Source of the DNA: Lama glama
Taxonomy: Eukaryota
Assembly: GCA_028534125.1 (NCBI GenBank)
Contig: CM052816.1
Span: 22,136,001-22,200,000, forward strand
Length of the DNA: 64,000 nt
Direction: 5' to 3'
Shown here: positions 1,170 through 62,238 of the stretch, in pieces
How positions within the stretch are numbered: position 1 is the first letter of the stretch
Layout of the letters: every line of letters starts with the position of its first letter
The notes under the pieces: model-generated
Databases searched by the model: none
Told to the model about the DNA's origin: nothing
Seen by the model: the letters and a program-made list of their open reading frames with translations, nothing else
Program-made: the position numbers and the translations under genes

Positions 1170-4100
1170 ATACATTTATAGTTTACTAACTGTTAAAACC
1201 TCATTGGCTTTCTATACAAGATGATTTCAGATGTTCTGCTTTGTCTTTTTGTTTAGAAATAATTTATAGTTATATTTTATATTAGTTTATATAATTTATA
1301 AAATAAATATATAAAATAATTCAATTATTTATATAGCATTTACATTTTTATAAAAATGTATAATGGTTTGAAGCTTTACAAAGCCAGCATACATTGATTG
1401 CTTTATTTGTTAGTAGTTTGAAAGACCTTTTTAAACCTAAAGATTTCATCGGTATGCCTTAGCATCACAGTATTTCATATTCAGAGGAAATGCATTCTTA
1501 AATGACTGTCCTTTGGTGTAGATTCCTAGTAATGTGTTGATCAGGGCATTCCCCTTTGTTGCAGTTACTTCATTTGAATTGGTGAGAATATGAAATGGAG
1601 ATCACAAGAAAATTTTTAAAGTACTGGAAGTGAAAAATCATTTATTCACATAATCATGTATTTTAGTTATTTGATAAATTACTGACTTCAAAATATGTTT
1701 GTTTTTTTTTTGTTCAGTAAGTAAGAGAGTAGTCATTATTTCTGAAGACACAATGTGGTATAGTGTATCATCAGAGTGGTGGTGGGTTCACCTGCTCAAT
1801 ATAGAATTTGGCCTGTTTGTTTGTTTCATGGTATTGTTGCACGGAGAGATTTTGCATGCTAGGCTTACCATACAATTCGCTAGAACGGCAGATTCTATGA
1901 GATGATTGGTAGAACAAGGAAAAGGATGAGGTCATCTTCACTTACAGGCCAATCTAAAGGAAAAGAGAGTTTGTTCTTTTGTGGTGGTGTTTGCTACAGT
2001 AGTTCTAACATATAACATTAGTGGATTGCATTTCATACACAGGGCAGAGGTTTTTTTTTCTTTTTTTTTTTTAAGCAGCTAAGAGGTGCTGTCTGTCTTG
2101 CTCAGCTTGAGGTCCTCCTTTGTGTGCTATCAGCATGATTTATAAAAAGGAGGAAAGATGCCCATTAGGATTTTGCTTTTTTCATTTGATTGTAACTTAT
2201 CCTGTTGGTACTGTATGTGAATATAATGATTGTCTGGCATTGAAACTGAAATGTTCTTAAGTCATGCTAATGTTTGTGTACAGAATGCTCGTCTTTTAGG
2301 AAGTTATCTTTAGGAAATGTTTGGTTTCATTTACACACAAGGTGCCTACTGTCATTTTTCCATTTTTAAAAATGAGTGTTAAAATTAGATTTTAGTTTAT
2401 TCTTGAATGCTTAACATTTTGTTGAAATTCCAACCTATTGTAGTTTATTTAAATTAATTAAATGGAAAAAAATACATTGGTACTTGAAAATCAACCTGTG
2501 CATATTTTCCATATCTTAGGTTTATAAATTAGAGTCATTGTTATTTGTTTTTCTTAGAATTAATTTTATATTTAAATATGTATTTTGTGTATTTTTTGAA
2601 ATTTTCTCAGAAAGCAAATAATGGTTAAGTTTTATGGATACCCAAGTTTATAAATGATCACTTACTGTGAAAGTGTGACTTGTCTTTTATTCAGTGTAAT
2701 ACTTAATTTTTCTAAAGTCATTTCTAGTCTTATAAGTAGTAGCATAATTCAGAGTGGCAATGTAGTGTTGTTCAGAAAAGTGAATATACTTTGCCCAGAG
2801 GTATTGAAAAACTATTTATTTGGTTTTTTGTTTGTTTGTTTTTGGCTAATGACACGGTATTTCTCTCTCTGACAGTCAGTAGAGTCCTTTGTAATAACAC
2901 CTGTCTCTCATGTAATTTAAATTTCTCCTCTAAGGTGCATACCTTTTCCCCTCAAAACAGTGGTAGATGAATAAAGCAAGATAGTTTTATTACTTTGATA
3001 TATTCATTGATGTTACTCTCATAATTTTGCTGCCTGGAGGCATACTGACTGTATTTTGCCATTGGAAACTATGTTTTACTTGGACTGTTGGGAGGCACCA
3101 TTACAAACCTTTAGTGTAAACTCTTTGTGGGAGTGTCTATCTACATTAGATACCTTGTGGCAGAATCTGAAGACTAAGAAGGGTACTAGAGGAATTGTGT
3201 TTTTAGTTTGGACAGGGTGTGTGGTAAGAAAGAAATTTTTTTTCCTGTTATTTTTGTAGAAAAATGGTATTTCATTTTAGTCCAAGCTCAGTTTGAAGCA
3301 GGTTGAATCATTTTCTTTCTGATTCCTTCTGAATTTTACTTCCATTCCAGTCTCTTTCTAGGAATTTAGTGTTGGGCTGTATGTAGGAAGGTACCATATT
3401 GCATAGAATATTCTTCCTTAGAGGGATTAGTGCATGCTGCAAGTCAGCTGTTGTGCCTGTGGGTTTTTTTTCTTCTCAGCTATCCTCTGCAAAATGAAAT
3501 TCTGTTGTTTTCATTTAAATTTGCTATTTACATACAAATCTTAGTATCAGTTTGATATTTTTAATGTTAATTTAAGGTGGTCTTGAAGATTATACCTTTC
3601 CAGAAGTTATTTGATAAATAAGTTTTGCAAGCAGAAACCCATGAAATATTAGTAGTGTTATGAATGAATACATATGTGACATCTGAGAACTAGTCTGCCT
3701 TCTGCTTTTGCAGTGCAGGAGTGTCTTACCAGAGCTAATTATTTTCCCTTGGGAGGACAATACTCTGTTAAATTTGAATAATAATGTTAGGAAGTGTGGC
3801 ATCCCAAATAAAGCAGTCTATCAGTGCATGGAAGTAAAAATCAAAGAGATTTTAAAAACTGAAATAGATGCTTAAGCCATTTTTTTTTTCTTACAGAATT
3901 TAGCTTGCTGACATGTCTCACAGAAGGGTGTGTGTGTTTTCAATAAATTGCTCTTGGGGCTGCATCTGCAGATACAGTAGCCAATTGATCTAATGCAGTT
4001 TCTGAAGGCTTTCTATACAGGTGATGTCATCCTTTTAGCTCTATTCTCCTCCCACTCTCTTTCCTTCTTATTAGATATTTCATCTTACTGCAGAGCATAG

Positions 4101-4990: not shown

Positions 4991-5044
4991 ATGGCTTTTC
5001 TTGTTCGCTGTTATGCCAATTGTCTTCAGCCATGGGCCTCCAAA
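4991..5044 (+). CDS. RAPGEF6: Probable alternative (internal) first coding exon of RAPGEF6, MAFLVRCYANCLQPWASK
   Basis: ATG at 4991 in strong Kozak context (gaaATGG). 18 open codons end at a consensus donor AAA|gtaagt (5045), phase 0, which matches the phase-0 exon at 16613. No transcript evidence available. Confidence 0.7.
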
Positions 5045-13399: not shown

Positions 13400-14860
13400 A
13401 TTTTTATTCTGTTTAATATTTCTAATTAATATATTAAATATTCTTTTTAAATAATTTACAATATGACTTCATTGACCTATGAGCTATTTAGAGTTTTTTT
13501 TAATAATTTCCTGATACATGATAATTTTCTAGTTATTTTTGTTACTTATTTCTGACTTATTTGCACTATGATCGTGGGATCTTCTCTGTATAATTTTAGT
13601 CTTTTGAATTTTGTTGAAGCCTGCCTTATTGTCAGTTTTCGTAAATGTTTCTTTATGTGCCCTAAAGGAACGTGTATTTTATAGTTTTTTGTTGCAGTGT
13701 TCTGTGTACATACACTTTAGGTCAAGTTTGTTAATTATGTTCATATCTTCTGTATCTTTACTTTTTATTTTGATTATTCTGTCACTGAGTGATCTGAGGT
13801 AAAATTTCAGTGGCATAATTGTGGATTCATCTACTTCTCCTTTTATCATTATCATTTTTTTGCCTAATACATTTTGAGGCTATGTTATTAAGTACATATC
13901 TGTTTAGTGTTGAACTTTTTATCATTATGAAATGTCCCCTTTCATTTCTACTAATGCTTTATTAATGCTTTTGCCTCACAGTGTGTCTTGTCTGACATAA
14001 ATATAACTACCTAAGCTTTCTTTTAGTTTGTGTTACTATTTTATATAGTCAGTATATGTTGATTTACTCAGATCATGTTGATTTACTCAGAAATTTCCTG
14101 TTTTCATTGGTTTTCCTTCTTTTCCTGCATCTAGCAGCTTTCATTTGGAATAATTTTCTTTATTCCAGTAGATTTTCCTCATTGTATGTCTGCTGGGGTT
14201 ATTTCTCCTCTTCTTTGTTTCTCTGAAAGTGACTTTATTTTGCCCATTTTGAGGACTTTTTTTACTGGGTGTAGAATTACAGCTCTTGGAAATATCACTC
14301 CATTGTCTTCAGGCTTCCAAGTTTCTCTTCTGAAGTCAGCCATCAGTTTAATTTTTGTCTTGTCATAGTAATCTTTTTTCCCAGACTTCTTTTAAGACTT
14401 CTCTGTTTTTCCTTTTTTCCCAACATTTTTACCCTGGTGTGCATAGATGTGGTTTGTCTTTTATTTATCTTGCCAGTAAATCTTAAAGCTGCTTGATCTG
14501 TGAGTTTGTATCTTTTGTCAGTTTTGGAAAAATGCTCAGCCCTCATTACCCACTATGCCTTAAATACCCTTCTGTTTCTATGACTCTGGTTATTTAGATG
14601 TTACCCTTTCACTGTATCTCCTGTTGCTCTTACCCATTCCCTCCTAGCTTCATTCTTTTTACTTTCCGTGTTTCATTCTAGGTATTTTTTTCAGACCAAT
14701 CTTCATTTTTCTTTTTTTTTTTCTTAGCTCTGTCAAATTTGTTATTGAATCCGTCTGTTGACTTTTTAAATTTCCATAATTGTATTTTTCAGTTCTAGAA
14801 TTTTTATGTCATTCTTTGTTAGTTTTTCTTTCTTTGCTAAAATTCTTAGTCTTTTTGGCA
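13400..14860 (-). mobile_element. Ancient L1 (L1M-type) fragments, boundaries approximate
   Basis: T-rich degenerate sequence with antisense L1 ORF1/ORF2-like motifs. Confidence 0.55.
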
Positions 14861-29449: not shown

Positions 29450-31080
29450 TTTTTTTTAATAAATTTTAAACTTACAGAAAGTTGCAAGAACAGTATAGAG
29501 CCCACCCTGACTCACATTCCCCAGCTGTTAAAATTTCACTGCATTTTCTCTGTTATCATCAGTCTTTTTGAACTATTTGAGAGTAGTCAGCAAATGTGTT
29601 GCCTCATCACTCCTAAATATTCCTGAATTTAATTAATATGAAATGTTTCATTTAATTTTAGGAATTTTAATATTGTGTGTTTTTCCTAAAAACAAGAACC
29701 TCTCCTACATAAACTCCATAGAACCCTTTGAGTTAGGAAATGGACATTGATAAAGTAAAACTATTCTGCCCACAGACCCTATTTAGATTTTCACCAACTC
29801 TCCAGACATTAGCTCTTTTCCTTTCTGGTTCAGAATCTCATCCAGGAATACAGTTGCATTTGGTTGTCATGTCATTTCAGTCTACTCCAGGAACATTCTT
29901 TTCCTGTTCACATTCTCAGTAGTTTTCAAGAATATAGACGTTATCATCTGTAGTATGACCATCAGCCTGGATCTGTCCAGTGTTTCCTCATGCCCAGGCT
30001 AAAGTCATGATGTCCTGGCAGAAATTGCACAGATATGAAGTTGTGCTCTTCTTAGTTCATCATATCAGGGAGCTCACATTGTCAACCTGCTGCACCACCA
30101 GTGAAGTTAACCTTAACCACCTGGTTGCATTGGTGTCTGTCTGCCAAGTTTCTTCACTGTAAAGCCGAGATTTTCCCCTTTATAATTGAGAAGTATTTGG
30201 AGCAGAGATGTTCTGGAATAGTGTCAATCAAACCTCTATCCACTGGTCTTCACTTCCACTGACCACTCCTGCCTGAAATGGTGATTTTCTATTTCCATTA
30301 TTTCTCTTACACTTTAGTCATTTTACTGTAAGAATGAGCAATCTCCCTCCATTAATTTAATTATATTTGTATGGTCTCATGTATTGTATTCCCTTGCCAT
30401 CAGTGTTGTTATGATCATCAAATTGTCCTAGATTTGAACAGTAGGACCCTGTTAAGGCTGACTTTATATCCTTTTGACATGACCCCATCATTTTTGGGGA
30501 GCATCCTTATTATCAGGCAGAACAGGATGTTCCAGGCTCATCTTGCAGTTTTCCTGCCCCAGCTTTGGAATTAGGCATTTCTCCAGAGAGCTCTGAGTCC
30601 TAGTGAAGAATAGCATTTAAAAACCAAGATCTAGGGGAGGGTATATCTCAGTGGTAGAGTGCATGCCTAGCACACACAAGGTCCTGGGTTCAATCCTAGT
30701 ACCTCCATTAAAAATAAATAAAAACTTAATTACCTCCTCCCTCTCCCCCCCAAAAAAATTCTAAAAATAAATTTAAAAAATAAATAAATAAAATAAAAAC
30801 AAAGATCTGGGCATTCATTCTGTGCATTGCTACTGAGGTGTCACTTCTTCTAGTGCCTTTTATCAGACAGAGGTAGGAAATATATGTATTTACTATAAAT
30901 TCATACACATCTATAACTTCTTATATGTAGCCTAGCCTAGCTAGCTACCTATAACAATCATGAGTTCATACCAGTACTCCCAATTCAAGTACTATACCAG
31001 AGTTTTTGGTAGCCTTTTCCTTTCCCTATTTGTAAATACCTTATCCATCAGTGGCTCTAGTTATGCTCTGAATATTTACT
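29450..31080 (-). mobile_element. Ancient L1 3' region (L1MC/ME-like), interrupted by a SINE; boundaries approximate
   Basis: aaattttaaacttacagaaagttgcaagaacagtatag and gttgcatttggttgtcatgtc motifs typical of antisense L1M 3' UTRs. Confidence 0.6.
30634..30794 (+). mobile_element. tRNA-derived camelid SINE (Vic-1-like), full length
   Basis: ggggagggtatatctcagtggtagagtgcatg...gggttcaatcc (A and B boxes), C-rich tract and A tail. TSD aaaaaccaagatctag / aaaaacaaagatctgg at a TT|AAAA site. Confidence 0.9.
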
Positions 31081-51560: not shown

Positions 51561-54335
51561 CCATGACAATTTTAAAGTGAAAGAATACTTCTGAAAATTA
51601 TACGTGAAAAAAAAGTTAATTGGTTTTTAATAACATAAATAAATTAAGACATAGCAATGTGGATTTTGTTGACCTGAAAATATTTCACAATTGAGGAAAT
51701 TTGATCTCCTGTTTTTTAGTCACATCTTTTATTTTGCTTTCTTTAATAATCATAGATTGCCTAAGTAACATTTTTATGTAATTCGTTGTAACAGTCCCTG
51801 AAATGGACTGCCTTGTTTCTTTATCAGAAATTATTTTTCCCCCATTTCTTGTCAACATACTTTCTTTGCATTTAATATTGGGATTATTTTTATTTGTGTA
51901 ATGATATTTATGCAGCCTTTTTAGTTTCATGTTACAAAACTAAAATATATTTTTATTCTAAGTAAATTCAGTGTTGGGAATTACTGAGGAAGTTTTCAAA
52001 ACTATCTTGTTTCTATTACTGCATCACGTTCTCAGGAGACTGTTTTGGTAAGAAATGACAATTACTTAAATAGGCTCTATCAATTCAGCTTCTAAACAAG
52101 CATGAATATTTTGCCAGTTAGATAGTATTTCATTCATGTCATAGCATGGGTTGTACATAGCATTAGTGTATTTTTCATTTATATATGCTCTCACCTTGAT
52201 TGCCATGAGTTTGTAACCAGCTTTACATTATAACTGTACAGTGTCATATCTATTGCTTATTAAAAAGCAGAAGTAATATTAAATAATGTGAGATAAAAAC
52301 TTTTAGTATTTCATGCACTTCTTAGTGTCTATAGCAAGTTCCAGTTTATTGCAGCTGATATGGCCACTTTCCTTTAATAGGAAAATGTAACTTTTTAACA
52401 CTGTTAAAGTTGCATCTAGTTTGATAATTAGTAGGACCAGCTAATTGTTTTAATAATGTGCTTCCTTGGATTTGGTTATCTGACTGTGTCCAAAGATTGG
52501 CAAGTGTTTGAAAAATCAAAGAAAGACTTGTATTTTTTTAAATCTTCATTTTTTACATAGTATGTATTTTTGCCAAAATACTTACAAAGCTATAAATAAA
52601 ATATCTGTAGAAGCCCCCCTCCTTTTTTTCTCTTACGTAACTGTAAAACATTTACTTCTGATCGTTTAGGAATACACACCTAATTATAAGGAGCCAACTT
52701 AGCATAAATAAAAATTACATATCAAATAAAATACTCTCTTTGCCTTCTCTGTAAGATTAGATTAAATTCTCTCCCCAGGAAAACATTTCGTTTCTGTAGG
52801 GCCTTTACCTATTGTACCCACCTTGCCCCACTCTGTTTTCCATATGCGTTCCATAAAATCCATTCTAGATATATATTGTTTTATTTTAATTTTGATAAAA
52901 GTGCTTCACTATCTTCTTAAAAATAGCAATTACGTTTTCCTCTGTGCCAAAATGTTCACCTACATGACCTGTTTTAATCCTTACAGTAGTCCTGGGGGGA
53001 TAGATAGTATTATTCAGAAATTTGGATGAGGTAACCAAGATCCAGAAACAGAAATTTCCCTGAGGTCACACAGCTAATAACTCAGGTCTGTCTGACTTAG
53101 CTTGCTCTTAAAACATTTATTTTTGCTTTCTTCCGTGTCTTCATGCTTCTCCCTGCCTTCTCTCTCTGTCTTGTCCTGTTTCTCTTCCTTGTCTGGCTAC
53201 TAACATTTCTTTAGCTGTTTATTTAGCAGTCCTCTACACTCCATCTTGCGTAGTTTCCTAATCTACCTAAGTCTTATTTTTAACTCCTAACGTTTTCTGA
53301 AAGTTTCCCATATCACTCATTTTTAAGACAGATCTTAATCCATCCCATGATAATAGGCAGGTATACTGTGATGCCTATTTGTGTGTGTAGCAAATACTGG
53401 GTAGAATGATGCACTGAAAAAATGTAAATGGGAATTAGGAATTAGTATTAACCTAAAGTTTTGGTTAGCATAATCACAACTCTTAGAAATAAGTGGTATT
53501 TTGGTGGTGGTTACTGATGGAAATCTTGTCTTCACTGCTGCCCTGTGTTTGTGTAAGACTAGTTTGCTTATCCTCTGATTTACGGGACTTTGAGTGCTAT
53601 CTAAACCTTCAGTGACAGAGTTGTTTCTTTGTTCTTTTTTTTTTTTTTTTCTGTTAGAGATATTTAGGACTGCCTATTTAAGACCTCTTAAATATTTTGA
53701 AGGAAGAGAATTGTATTTGCTTAAACATGGTCATTAAAGTGTTAATTGTCTTTGAAACCTTTAGAGTGAATTAGCTTTAGAAGAGTTGCTTTCTGCTCTG
53801 TTTTTGATGTTCTCATCTAGGGAACAGCCAAATAATTAGACTTGAGAGGTCACATAAGAAATAATGTGCCGTTAGAATAAACTAGAAACTGTAAAATTTT
53901 TTTTCTATTTTCATTTCTCATCCTTTTTTTCCTTCTCCTTTTTATTTGTTGCATGTTGCCATTGTTTGTTGCTATTCTCTGTGTCATCTTCCTGTTGTCT
54001 TTTCTTTGTACTTGCTGGTTTGAGTACTTCCCAGGTTATTCGTATGTTTAAAGACCTCTCTTATTTTGTCACTTAAACCTGGCCCCATTGTTTTCTACAA
54101 CCTGCCGTATTTTTGGCTTGAATTCAGACCCAGCTACATCCTTTGCCTGGAAGGTTGCCAAACTTTTCTGTTAAGACAAAGAATCTTGCTGTAGTGTGGC
54201 TTTGCATTGTTGGATATATATATACGTTAGTGTCCAATGAAACTGAGAGATCTCAAGGACTCCCAGTCAGGTTCATTTTCTCTACCAAAACCAGCAGAAA
54301 CTAAAGATGAAATATAATTACTTCTCTCTGATATA

Positions 54336-54757: not shown

Positions 54758-54915
54758 CGATGGAGGCCTGAGCCACTCACAGGACGACAGCATTGTGGGA
54801 ACAAGACACTGTAGGCACAGTCTGGCTATAATGCCTATCCCTGGAACACTGTCATCCAGCAGCCCTGATCTCCTGCAGCCTACCACCAGCATGTTGGATT
54901 TTTCTAATCCGTCAG
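54758..54915 (+). CDS. RAPGEF6: RAPGEF6 exon (about 17), (S)DGGLSHSQDDSIVGTRHCRHSLAIMPIPGTLSSSSPDLLQPTTSMLDFSNPS
   Basis: cattcttttgaag acceptor, CAG|gtaatt donor, 158 nt, phase 2/1. Frame is continuous with both neighbours. This frame is not in the ORF track. Confidence 0.93.
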
Positions 54916-55823
54916 GTAATTTTTCTTTATTTTATATAGCCATATTGGTACCAAATAGATAAACTGGTGGTTGAGGCTTGTGCTACAAATACTAGTGTTG
55001 CTTTCAGCTCTCTGTTTTCATCTCTAGATTTTGACTAAATGCAAAAAGCTAAAGAGAAGCTTATGTATTTTTATCTAAACTAATGTGCTACTTCCTCCAA
55101 TAAGAAAGAAGAAGTATGTATCTTTTCGCAACTGTAATCCAAGCAGTGGAATGTAAAGCAGGGATACTTCTTCTCAGCCAAGAAACATGTTACCCAGGGT
55201 GTGGAAGGGAATAAGGCAGATTATTTTAATCTGAGTGGCCTCAGTTATCTTCTGTGATGTACAGAAATGTGTCAGTAGTTTTCTAGAAACATTGATTTTT
55301 CTCTCCACCACCTGAAGCTAAAGTTGTTTTTGCCACATACAATATTGTTAATTAAAGTAGTGTATAGCATCTCCTTCATTGCTGTTCAAGGTTTTAAGTG
55401 TGGGACATCAAGTTAATTTTCCTGCCTCTGTTCATGTTCAAAGGCAGAAATTGTTATTTACCAATATAACCTAAAGTTTCATTACAAGGAATAAACACTT
55501 TGAAGAATTACTTATATATCCATCACTTGGATGGATTTGAGATGGCTTTCAATAAAAGACACGTACGATTAAAAACTGAAATATATACTTGTGTTCAAGG
55601 AGAGGAGGGAAAAAGATTGCTTCTGCAGAGATGGGTATACTTGTGATTTAGCTTCAGTTTTGAGGCTAAAGTTCTGCCAGCAAGTGTAAAAGGGAAGAAA
55701 CTCAATTATATAAATCTCAGTATTAGATAGGAGGAAGTATAAATGTAATAGTAAAGTTTATGTTTTATTATAGCAACAGAAATAAAAACTCTAGGACATA
55801 ACATAAAAACACAGTTGAACAGT

Positions 55824-55945: not shown

Positions 55946-57709
55946 ACCAGTTGAAAATCATTCTACATATTGTTTCTTCCTTTTCATTTCAGTTGCTTCT
56001 GAATCTCATTAGAGAGATTCTTAAACTCAGTAAGTAGTCTGTCTTGGACACATGCTAATCTCTCTGTGACTACCAGTGTTCTTTCTAGAGGAAAGATTCT
56101 GATAAGTTGTTACTTGGATTAGAAGTTTCTACTGATTTCTGTAAGTCAGAGTTCAGTTATGAGATAGAAACCACTCCACATAGTTGATCAGAAGTTAGTA
56201 TCAGGAATTGTTACCAAGGTATAAAATAAACTATTTACCTGAAAAGGTAAACAAGTAAGGACTAAGATTTCAGAGTTAGGAAACTACAAACTGGATTCAG
56301 CTTCTGGTATGTGAGAGAAATGCCACTACCAGGGTGAAGAAGTGTTGCTGGAGTGATCTAAGAACCAAAAACCCACAAGAAGAAACATAAAGCAGCAAGT
56401 GTCTTCTTCCTTTAACCTTGCAGCATACTCCTGGTGCCCCCTTTTTGTCATAACCTAAGAGGGAGACAGTTGGCAGAGAAGTGTGGTTTGCAGAGTCCCA
56501 GCCCCTTGTGGCAGGGCAGTGTGGGTTTGGAGCCTAAAGACAATAACTTACAACTATTCGTGTTCAGTTTTTACAACATAATTATAAATCCCCTTTCTAG
56601 CCTCCTGTTCTCTGATTCTCCCCACTGTCACTTCATCCGTCTTTTCTGTGTGTATGGCATGTACCTTCAGAACTCTCTTTCTTTGCCTATGTTGTTTGCT
56701 ACCTGTGGTATTTTCTCCCTGCATATCCCATGACATTTTTCTCGTTTCTCAGTGCTGAGCTCAAATGGTACCTCATCTGGGAATCCCTCTGCTGCATAGT
56801 CAGTCCCTCCTTTTTCAGAAATCTCTAGCATATTTTCATTGTCTCTCTTGTATTGCTTGTCATTTGGTTGCATAGGAATTTATTTCTAAGTCTGTGTGTA
56901 CACGTGTTCCACAGCAGCACTTCTTACACTACATTCACAATTATTAAAACACTACCAAAGCACAAACTAAATATGCATCTGTACTTTCATAAAGCAAGTA
57001 TTTAGGGACGCATGACTTAGAGATTAAATGATTTTTTTTATGGCATATGTAGAAGTGGGCCTTGTGAGTAGTAAGAGATGGGTCATAGGGAGAGGAGAGA
57101 GAGACGTTGGGGATTTAGATGGGAGGGCAAAAGATGGAGGTTGGAATTATTAAAACTTAGAAACTGTAAGTCCCATGGCACTGAAATTTAGATCTCTGAA
57201 GAGGATGTGCTACTCAGTTTGATTTCGTAATTCTCTCACTGAAACATGTTGAAATGGCTGAAGATGTCGTTTTAAAGTCTATTCAGAGGAAGTCAGTCTG
57301 CGGCCTTTGTCCATATCAGCAATATAAGGGAACGCAAATAAGATAGGTATTTAACTTAAAAATTATATTTTTAAACCCCAAAATGTGCAGCTTTATGAAA
57401 GGCCTTTTACAGTGCTGTTTATATTTATGTTGAATAAAATATTCATTAACAATTCCAAATTCAGCTCCATAAATTATATATGACAGCACTGAATTTCAGA
57501 TTAGCTATGTATATCACATATATATACTGGAGTACATGTGTGACATCAGCCAAGTTTGATTAACTTTTGTCGATCTTGATCTCAGTTGTGTTTCTGCTCC
57601 ATGTTTAAAATTGTTGTTAGAAAGTAAGGACAGAGCTACCGAACTGTTAAATAGTTTGCTTTTGATTGCTGACTTTTTTATGGTTTTGCTTTGTTTTTGC
57701 TGCCTACAG

Positions 57710-57724
57710 CTGTTGGTTTTTACT
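57710..57724 (+). CDS. RAPGEF6: 15-nt alternative microexon of RAPGEF6 (gives AVGFYY in place of D, before the RA domain)
   Basis: Branch-like gctgac (57668-57673), T/TGC-rich tract, then cctacag|CTGTTGGTTTTTACT|gtaagt. Phase 1/1, frame-preserving, no stop. Confidence 0.8.
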
Positions 57725-60700
57725 GTAAGTATCTTGAAGAGTATGGTATCCTGTTGCTTATGTTTGTATGTACTGTTTTATTATTTTTTATAAGTCAAAT
57801 GATACAGAATTGAATGAAGTTGGAAGCAGAACTTTCCTATCCTCTTACAAGGTTGCCATTGTAAACTGGTGTGTATTGTTTTGGTCATTTTCTTTGAATT
57901 TCTATGTTTTTATACTAATAGAATCAGAATATACTTGCTGTTCTTTAACTTGTAAAGTGTTTTGGAATTTTTGACCTAATCTAAGATGAGGCCTAAAAGA
58001 ATTCAGAGTGTAGCCAAAAGGATTTTGAAACTGAAATTTTTTCATAATCTGCATATGGAACTTTTTGCTTACTCTTTTTCATTTAATAGCACAAACATTT
58101 TGTTTGATTTCTTTAATATTCAGTAAACTTCAGATTCTTTCTTCATGGCAAGTATGAGTTATTTTAATTAATTTTTAATTGCAAAGGAGCATAATTATAG
58201 TTTTTTTTAAGTCAAAATGCAGAGGAAAGATAAAATATGTAACTCTCCACTCCCCGGAATTAACAATTGTTCATTTACTCCTATGTTCTTCCAAAAATTT
58301 CAGTACATGTGAAACATGTGTACCATTTCTTTTACCCCAAATGGTATGCTATTCTTTCTTTCCACTTAGCCCATTTCACCTAGCAGTACACCTTAAGTGC
58401 TTTTCTGTATCAGGACATATTGTTCTGCCAGAGTTTTTTGACATCTGGTAACATATTTAACCAGTACCTTTTCAGTGGACACTTGCAGTGTTGCCTAAGC
58501 CTCTGTGTTTACGTATCTTTGCAAGTTTTAGGTTTGCATTATATTTTGAATTTTGTCAAAAGAATTTGTGCAAATTTGTTTTCTTTCTTGTTATAAAAGT
58601 TCCTACAAAATATCATTTGTTTTGACTCTTGGCCTGCAGAACTTAAAATATTTGCTATCTGGCCCTTTATAGAACAAGATTGCCAATCCTTGTTCCATGC
58701 CATTATACCACTAGCCTATTTTTTTTATTTGTGAGCCTTTTACTATATGCATTGTCTTATTTACTTGATTATTGTCTGTTTTTCTTTGAACCACTGCTTA
58801 TCCTCTTGAATGTAAACAAATCCCTGAGAGCAGAGACTTTGTTCATCTCATTTATTATTCTATTTTCACCACCTAGAATCTGTTGACACATAACATGCAC
58901 TCCATACATAGTTGTTCAGTGATTAACAATTTAAAGCAGAATTAAGAGGCACTATGTTGCTTTTTCTTTTAAATGATCATCTTAAATATCTAAAAAGTTC
59001 TTCCATTTTTAATGTAAACTCAGGGTTAGTAATTCTTCAGTTATCTCATTTTTAATTTTTACTTATGCAAGATTATAGTTAGCACTTTAGAAATTTTGCC
59101 TTTGGTTTGAAAGTCTTAGGATTCATATTCTATTAATAAAATTCTTACATAATAGGTAAATGAATTCAAGAATAGAAATCTCAGATACCTGGACTAATAA
59201 ATGCTATACTGCTCCAAGTTTCTTTTTAAATGTCTATTTTGCTTTATGGGGTTATATTTTTATGTTCATTCTAGCTTTATGCGTAAAATTTGAAATGATT
59301 ATATCATTTTTCTTCTTAATTCAACTTTATTCTAACCTCATCTTTACCACTCTAAAATGGAAAAAGAGATTTACACTGACAGCAATACCAGTGCAGAGAA
59401 ATTTTTCCCTCTAATATCTCACAAATGGTGTTCCCAGTTGACATTTATTACATTGGCAAATAACCAGGATTTGAGTTACGGAGTACCTTTTGGATAATTC
59501 CATTTGCAGATCTGTTCTAGAGGTATCCATTTATGATACCCGAATCCCTCTTATATGGCTATATAACAGTTTGTTCTTTGCATGGGAAACAAATGGTTTT
59601 AAGAGTATTACTTTTTTACGCTGCTTAGCAGGATATACAACAAGATACATACATCTGTTCCTTCACAGAGGTTGTAGTATGTTAGCAGCAAGAGAAGAAA
59701 ATAAGAAATGTGTGCAAATTCCCAACCTGTCTTTGTGAATAAATTTCTCAGAAGAACTTAGTAAAAGAGATCAGAACATCTCCCCATTCCCTTAAGGTCA
59801 GCCAGCAGAGAGTTAGCCCCCAAAGACCTTGTAAACGAATCCAGCTCTAGAGCCCTGAGACTTACATTTGTAAAGAGGATAGGAACAATACAGGTAATAA
59901 TAGTATGTTTTCTGCCCCTTTCATAGAGTTAAAAGGGATAATGAAACCTTTTTGTCCGGTATCTTTCTCTTGGAAAACTCAAATTTACATCTACTTGGAT
60001 TTTCTAGCCCAGGGTGCAGGAGCATCTTGTAAGCATCTCTTAAGAATGTACCTTAAGCCTTGTAGATTTAGAAACCTGATGATGTCACCAACACCCTGAG
60101 AATTGACTCATTGTGAAATGATACAAATGAGGTGTTTGGTGACTCAGATCTTTGCATACATGAAGAAAAGACAGTTTGATGTGTACATCTTACAAAAGGG
60201 ACTTGAATAAATGAAACGTTCTGCTTCCATTTTGATGGTAGATTCAGAAGATTCAACATTTGTTGGCTAAGACTCCTCCTTCCTGGAATTGTATTAACGT
60301 ATTTTCAGTTGTCTGTTCCAATCCTGGGAGTCATTCTCTGTCTTTTTGTGTCCTCAGACTGACAGCGTACCATATTCTGTGAAATTATTTCCTACTGTGT
60401 CTGTTTCATTTCTCTTCTCTTTCCTTTAGCTGGAATTATATCTCAGATGGCTTTGAGACAAATTTGTAATTTTTCTTTTCCTCTTAAAGTTAACAATGTA
60501 TATAATGCTGAGAAAGTAATGCTAGACAAATAGTATATAATTTCTTGAGCCACCAAAATCTCCCCTGCCCACCCCAACTATAATAATCACAAAAAAATTC
60601 ACCAGAATACGTTTTTCCTAATTTAAAAAAAATTTGTAATGATTTATTCTCATAGGGAAAATTTAACATTTGTTCATGTGAAATCTGTTTTCACTTACCT

Positions 60701-61997: not shown

Positions 61998-62238
61998 ATA
62001 TTCCTGATCAAGTTATAAGAGTTTTCAAAGCAGATCAACAAAGTTGCTACATTATCATCAGTAAAGACACTACAGCTAAAGAAGTTGTTTGTCATGCTAT
62101 TCATGAATTCGGTTTGACTGGTACATCTGACACATATTCTCTCTGTGAAGTTTCTGTTACTCCTGAAGGTGTCATAAAACAGAGAAGACTTCCAGACCAG
62201 TTCTCCAAATTAGCTGATAGAATTCAGCTCAATGGAAG
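61998..62238 (+). CDS. RAPGEF6: RAPGEF6 exon (about 18), Ras-association domain (D)[79 protein letters not shown](R)
   Basis: tttttatacag acceptor, AG|gtgaat donor, 241 nt, phase 1/2. Confidence 0.96.

What the first reader, a model, noticed from the sequence alone, without database searches (positions are those of the whole stretch)
57660..57760. Hidden 15-nt microexon that inserts a hydrophobic/di-tyrosine peptide next to the RA domain
Seen: branch-like gctgac about 37 nt upstream, an AG-free T-rich tract with three TGC triplets (ttttgctttgtttttgctgcctacag), 15 nt CTGTTGGTTTTTACT and a consensus gtaagt donor. Inclusion between exons ending 54915 and starting 61998 changes ...SNPS-D-IPDQ to ...SNPS-AVGFYY-IPDQ in frame. 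Established: UGC motifs just upstream of the 3' splice site mark SRRM4/SRRM3-dependent neural microexons. Inference: this is a tissue-specific switch at the edge of the M-Ras/Rap-binding RA domain that adds two potential phospho-Tyr. I recall a similar AVGFY insertion in some mammalian RAPGEF6 isoforms, so it may be annotated elsewhere, but microexons are often missed in non-model genomes.
Basis: partly seen in the sequence, partly recalled or inferred. Interest (0 to 1): 0.72.

Follow-up and report, generated by a model that had tools for sequence, protein, structure and literature searches.

The report
Known neuronal microexon in RAPGEF6
This is a 15-letter exon in the signalling gene RAPGEF6 that is already catalogued in mouse as neuron-enriched, with a likely human counterpart switched on by the splicing factor SRRM4, so it is ordinary; only the job of the short peptide it adds, kept from sharks to mammals, is untested.

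Summary
57710-57724 is a 15-nt AG/GTAAGT-flanked, frame-keeping exon of RAPGEF6 in a likely camelid genome. Inclusion changes SNPS-D-IPDQ to SNPS-AVGFYY-IPDQ.

It is not hidden or new. The identical 15 nt are listed in mouse as an annotated, neuronal-cluster microexon (477 reads; included from E13.5; PMC7821500 supplement). A 15-nt human RAPGEF6 exon at the matching position (VastDB HsaEX0052287) goes from PSI 0 to 85.5 on SRRM4 expression in HEK293 (PMC7935315 supplement).

Public protein records carry the insert in mammals, birds, reptiles, amphibians, teleosts and sharks/rays. None of the 15 camelid records seen has it, so this is at most an annotation gap.

The first Tyr is invariant (163 of 163 records). 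The second is Asn in cartilaginous fishes, which weakens the di-tyrosine idea. Models put the insert in coil three residues before strand 1 of an unchanged RA fold. Its effect on binding is untested; no camelid reads were laid.

Verdict: already known, low interest.

The parts
54758..54915 (+). Upstream RAPGEF6 coding exon, ending ...SNPS plus one base of the next codon
   Evidence: tblastn of camel RAPGEF6 P0003 residues 694-746, 100% identical; GT follows at 54916
57655..57707 (+). 53-nt AG-free, T-rich zone upstream of the microexon acceptor
57669..57673 (+). Predicted branch-point motif CTGAC, A at -38
   Evidence: consensus match only; not mapped
57687..57703 (+). Three TGC triplets (-23, -12, -9) between branch motif and acceptor; likely SRRM3/4 enhancer
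   Evidence: role inferred from 10.1101/2024.09.17.613571 section 10
57708..57709 (+). 3' splice site AG
57710..57724 (+). 15-nt microexon; inclusion replaces D with AVGFYY
   Evidence: identical to mouse chr11:54651748-54651763; peptide in vertebrate protein records
57725..57730 (+). Consensus 5' splice site GTAAGT
61998..62238 (+). Downstream exon encoding most of the RA domain
   Evidence: 100% identical to Camelus ferus RAPGEF6 records; Pfam RA at 750-833 of P0003; exon end read

Best explanation
This is the camelid copy of a conserved 15-nt RAPGEF6 microexon that is neuron-enriched in mouse, is likely switched on by SRRM4/SRRM3 through its upstream UGC motifs, and adds a short hydrophobic peptide just before the RA domain that likely tunes a protein contact rather than the fold. 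Shown here: the splice signals, the frame, the D-to-AVGFYY change and the conservation across jawed vertebrates. Shown in published tables: neuronal inclusion of the identical mouse exon, and SRRM4 induction of the matching human exon. Inferred: the same regulation in camelids (about 0.9) and use of these particular UGCs (about 0.75). Also inferred, and weaker (about 0.4): the G-F-Y core docks on the RA domain, its bound Ras/Rap GTPase or a neighbouring domain, and so changes recruitment or activity of this Rap GEF in neurons.
For: Mouse row: same 15 nt, transcript ENSMUST00000102743, 477 reads, 'Annotated', cluster Neuronal N3, gained in midbrain/hindbrain/neural tube at E13.5 and forebrain at E14.5, no change in skeletal muscle, heart or adrenal. 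The same transcript carries the 24-nt exon named Rapgef6 in PMC12626420. Human row: RAPGEF6 HsaEX0052287, 15 nt, PSI 0 (GFP) and 85.5 (SRRM4) in HEK293; its distance to the 24-nt exon is 19,755 nt against 19,906 nt in mouse. The insert is in 24 of 120 hits, in 120 of 120 listed hits (a query chosen to rank it first), and in 37 of the 126 new records, all sharks and rays. Position tally over 163 inclusion records: G 162, F 160, first Y 163. Both models give the same strand and helix order, with the insert in coil before strand 1.
Against: No camelid reads were laid on the locus, and 0 of 15 camelid protein records seen carry the insert (15 of the 29 members of that cluster were listed). The human exon's sequence was not seen; orthology rests on gene, length and spacing. 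The exon is absent from the mouse-zebrafish conserved list of PMC7821500 (file 5), although other teleost records carry the peptide. UGC is not strictly needed for SRRM4 response. The models give the insert only about pLDDT 62 (block mean) and no secondary structure, so they show no docking. Protein records are many isoforms per species and mostly predicted models, so counts are not independent.
Confidence: 0.8

Rival explanations
1. Same exon, but the peptide works as a phosphotyrosine switch: the conserved Tyr would be phosphorylated in neurons and recruit an SH2 or PTB protein.
For: The first Tyr is present in 163 of 163 inclusion records and lies in a coil region of the model.
Against: The second Tyr is Asn in 37 of 163 records. 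No acidic residue lies directly before the Tyr and there is no NPxY motif (read from the sequence). The near-invariant G and F fit a hydrophobic contact equally well. No phosphoproteomic data were seen.
Confidence: 0.15
2. Same exon, but the peptide is a short linear docking motif for a protein outside the Ras pathway, for example an LC3-interacting-type core F-x-x-I/V made with the next exon.
For: F at position 4 (160 of 163) and I/V three residues later (163 of 163) fit the recalled core [W/F/Y]xx[L/I/V], in sharks as well as mammals.
Against: Such four-residue patterns are common by chance. The usual upstream acidic residues are missing. The I/V is conserved anyway as part of the constitutive exon. 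Two pika records have L in place of F.
Confidence: 0.07
3. The exon is a remnant in camelids: the sequence is intact but no longer spliced in.
For: 0 of 15 camelid records seen include it; no camelid is among the 120 inclusion hits listed.
Against: The 15 nt are identical to mouse and all splice signals are intact. Annotation of neural microexons depends on brain RNA-seq being available (general knowledge).
Confidence: 0.05
4. A chance pseudo-exon in an AT-rich intron.
For: The same signature also picks a non-microexon at 5030-5044.
Against: Identical exon with 477 reads in mouse and a peptide conserved to sharks.
Confidence: 0.01

Closest known systems
Mouse Rapgef6 15-nt microexon, chr11:54651748-54651763 (mm10), Parada et al. 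2021, PMC7821500 supplementary file 2
   Same: Identical 15 nt, same gene and same intron context; RefSeq mouse isoform 1 carries AVGFYY at the same junction.
   Different: Nothing in the exon. Intron length 7,082 nt here against 7,906 nt in mouse. Inclusion is measured in mouse and not in camelids.
Human RAPGEF6 VastDB HsaEX0052287 (chr5:131469801-131469815), SRRM4 target list of Head et al. 2021, PMC7935315
   Same: Same gene, 15 nt, same spacing to the 24-nt exon as in mouse.
   Different: Its sequence was not seen; orthology is inferred.
RAPGEF6 exon 21A (24 nt, HsaEX0052288)
   Same: A second frame-keeping microexon in the same gene.
   Different: It lies about 20 kb downstream, next to the RasGEF domain, encodes RKKRWRSL, is neuro-muscular in mouse and NOVA2-promoted, and is reported to lower Rap1 interaction. 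It is outside this window. Functional data on it do not transfer to the 15-nt exon.
RA domains whose N-terminal extension contacts Ras (NORE1A, afadin RA1)
   Same: The model of this region matches RA-Ras complexes such as 3ddc, 6amb and 5kho in fold.
   Different: The role of their N-terminal extensions is recalled, not checked here. The RAPGEF6 insert is predicted as coil with no shown contact.

Membership tests
SRRM3/4-regulated neural microexons | Exon of 3-27 nt with canonical splice sites | tested here: met
   15 nt, AG/GTAAGT
SRRM3/4-regulated neural microexons | Frame-preserving | tested here: met
   Both forms translate in frame
SRRM3/4-regulated neural microexons | UGC between branch point and AG | tested here: met
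   TGC at -23, -12, -9 below a CTGAC motif at -38; found in 74-79% of such exons per 10.1101/2024.09.17.613571
SRRM3/4-regulated neural microexons | Upstream UC-repeat element of the bipartite enhancer | tested here: inconclusive
   Only one TCTC/CTCT match in the 209 nt upstream, about 130 nt away; the tract is U-rich rather than UC-rich
SRRM3/4-regulated neural microexons | Vertebrate conservation | tested here: met
   Peptide in mammals, birds, reptiles, amphibians, teleosts, sharks and rays
SRRM3/4-regulated neural microexons | Neuron-enriched inclusion in this species | not tested
   No reads laid on the camelid locus; met for the identical mouse exon in published data
SRRM3/4-regulated neural microexons | Inclusion responds to SRRM4 | not testable with these tools
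   Published for the likely human orthologue: PSI 0 to 85.5 in HEK293 overexpression; no loss-of-function data seen
RAPGEF6 (PDZ-GEF2) gene | Flanking exons match RAPGEF6 with cNMP-binding, RasGEF_N, PDZ, RA and RasGEF domains | tested here: met

The most novel reading that the evidence does not exclude
The exon itself is known, but its G-F-Y core, kept from sharks to mammals three residues before RA strand 1, is a neuron-specific add-on binding element. It would change which Ras-family GTPase recruits RAPGEF6 or how long it holds, and would act together with the downstream 24-nt exon to give a distinct neuronal Rap GEF. I found no functional study of this exon in the held library.
Probability: 0.3. 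Interest if true: 0.4.

Novelty: already known. Interest (0 to 1): 0.12.

Why it matters
As a discovery it matters little: the exon is catalogued in mouse and, by inferred orthology, in human. It likely fills a gap in camelid gene models. The residual value is an open question. A deeply conserved neuronal microexon sits at the edge of the RA domain of a Rap GEF, and the functional work I found concerns only the gene's other, 24-nt microexon. A two-isoform binding and GEF assay would settle it.

Tried and rejected
No whole genome is held for this window. The run search listed 24 runs, but none was laid, so it gives no evidence on expression or tissue. A PDB sequence search with the RA exon found nothing at E<=0.001. 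The 150 listed 50%-identity representatives showed no clear inclusion form among the 85 in which the junction could be located; six RAPGEF2-like records had no insert, too few to say the paralogue lacks it. Supplement searches for RAPGEF6 found nothing in PMC9303857 (12 of 18 files), PMC12868881 (1 file) and PMC13281805 (2 files, one cut). Irimia et al. 2014 is not held. The islet preprint names RAPGEF6 as a host gene but not the exon; its supplements are closed and may bear on islet inclusion. CNS and germ-cell splicing mentions of Rapgef6 did not identify the exon in the passages seen. Searches for M-Ras binding to this RA domain returned no usable paper, so that link is recalled. Co-occurrence of the two microexons in protein records (23 of 28 with the insert against 72 of 148 without) was not used as evidence, because the records are non-independent predicted isoforms. 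The candidate at 5030-5044 was rejected as a microexon. Earlier scan notes returned nothing.

Full report
Observation. A 15-nt exon lies at 57710-57724, with AG before it and GTAAGT after it. The 53 nt upstream hold no other AG, a CTGAC motif with its A at -38, and TGC at -23, -12 and -9. Between the exon ending at 54915 and the exon starting at 61998 it keeps the frame and turns SNPS-D-IPDQ into SNPS-AVGFYY-IPDQ. The first and last residues of the insert are junction codons. With criteria drawn post hoc from this site, 200 local shuffles gave 0.06 such sites per 64 kb, against 2 on the real + strand and 0 on the - strand. The other site is the end of an alternative first exon, so the signature needs outside support.

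Gene and organism. The downstream exon is 100% identical to Camelus ferus RAPGEF6 records, and all named hits among the 120 listed are RAPGEF6 or its PDZ-GEF alias. Camel RAPGEF6 residues about 165-827 map exon by exon on the + strand of the window. The window is therefore likely camelid. No whole genome is held.

It is already catalogued. Supplementary file 2 of Parada et al. 2021 (PMC7821500; seen: passages and supplement rows) lists mouse chr11_+_54651748_54651763 with exactly these 15 nt. The row gives 477 reads, type 'Annotated', cluster Neuronal N3, gain of inclusion at E13.5 (midbrain, hindbrain, neural tube) and E14.5 (forebrain), and no difference in skeletal muscle, heart or adrenal. 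The same transcript carries the 24-nt exon that PMC12626420 names Rapgef6 (seen: passages and 12 of 13 supplement files). Head et al. 2021 (PMC7935315; seen: passages, section 17, 12 of 19 supplement files) list RAPGEF6 HsaEX0052287, 15 nt, at PSI 0 with GFP and 85.5 with SRRM4, in the supplement sheet of exons gaining inclusion; the paper defines 314 such targets in HEK293. I did not see the human sequence. Orthology rests on gene, length and spacing to the 24-nt exon (19,755 nt in human, 19,906 nt in mouse), and on primate records with AVGFYY.

Conservation. Of the 120 hits, 24 include the insert, 94 skip it and 2 differ. A query centred on the insert returned 120 of 120 listed hits with it. 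These include mouse isoform 1, primates, horse, a marsupial, an afrotherian, birds, alligator, turtles, lizards, a snake, two frogs and three teleosts. Among 126 new records from sharks and rays carry variants such as AAGFYN. Over all 163 stored inclusion records the positions read A154/V9, V120/A39/I2/T2, G162/A1, F160/L2/Y1, Y163 and Y126/N37; one beaver record with an unrelated sequence at this junction was left out. These are isoform records, many per species and mostly predicted, so they show taxonomic reach and not frequency. The exon is not in the mouse-zebrafish list of PMC7821500. None of the 15 camelid records seen includes it (14 skip, 1 aberrant; 15 of 29 cluster members were listed).

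How it likely works: splicing. Outside neurons the tiny exon with its distant branch site is skipped. In neurons SRRM4, or SRRM3, acting near the UGCs likely promotes its recognition. The mouse and human tables support this for the orthologues. The role of these particular UGCs is inferred from 10.1101/2024.09.17.613571 (seen: passages and section 10), which also reports that UGC is helpful but not strictly needed. No camelid reads were laid, so inclusion in this species is inferred from sequence identity.

How it likely works: protein. Pfam places the RA domain at 750-833 of the skip form, and the insert replaces D747. AlphaFold2 models with and without the insert give the same strand and helix order. 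The insert is coil, three residues before strand 1, at a block-mean pLDDT of about 62. The fold matches RA domains in Ras and Rap complexes. The near-invariant G-F-Y suggests a specific hydrophobic contact with the RA domain, its GTPase or a neighbouring domain (about 0.4). A phosphotyrosine switch is less likely (about 0.15), because the second Tyr is not conserved and no recognisable kinase or PTB context is present. The M-Ras link of this RA domain, and the role of N-terminal extensions in NORE1A and afadin, are recalled; two searches found no usable paper.

Relation to known work. The functional literature I found concerns the other microexon, exon 21A (24 nt, next to the RasGEF domain). 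It is NOVA2-promoted and reported to lower Rap1 interaction (PMC10178952, passages; repeated in PMC10835012, passage). Deleting the matching 24-nt zebrafish exon raises activity (PMC12626420 and PMC13281805, passages). The islet preprint 10.1101/2022.04.02.486809 names RAPGEF6 as a host gene without saying which exon (passages; supplements closed). PMC2394768 and PMC9226075 mention Rapgef6 splicing without identifying this exon in the passages seen. Searches turned up no functional study of the 15-nt exon; the library lacks most subscription papers, including Irimia et al. 2014.

Verdict. A real, correctly read feature and a good catch from raw sequence, but an already known neuron-enriched microexon with a likely SRRM4-responsive human orthologue. 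What is left is a likely annotation gap in camelids and an untested peptide function. Interest 0.12.

Noticed in passing
window 4991-5044 (+): Alternative first coding exon of RAPGEF6 (MAFLVRCYANCLQPWASK) ending at a GTAAGT donor. It opens 7 stored mammalian short isoforms, and a close variant opens one distant relative. Its last 15 nt mimic a microexon signature. The two cysteines could be lipid-modified (inference).
   Followed up: partly
window 14477-14499, 30318-30327, 52036-52047, 1718-1720 (+): Other short AG...GTRAG stretches with pyrimidine-rich, AG-free upstream tracts (23, 10, 12 and 3 nt). The 12-nt one at 52036 keeps frame and has one TGC. None was checked against protein records.
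   Followed up: no
P0356, P0490-P0539 (shark and ray RAPGEF6 records): Cartilaginous fishes end the insert in Asn rather than Tyr (GFYN), which fits a different last base of the microexon.
   Followed up: partly
P0041, P0058, P0479: Lagomorph records show the only mammalian changes in the G-F core: AVGLYY in pika and AVAFYY in rabbit.
   Followed up: no
P0048 (beaver record): A different insert (GNVKPSLY) is annotated at the same junction, possibly a gene-model error.
   Followed up: no
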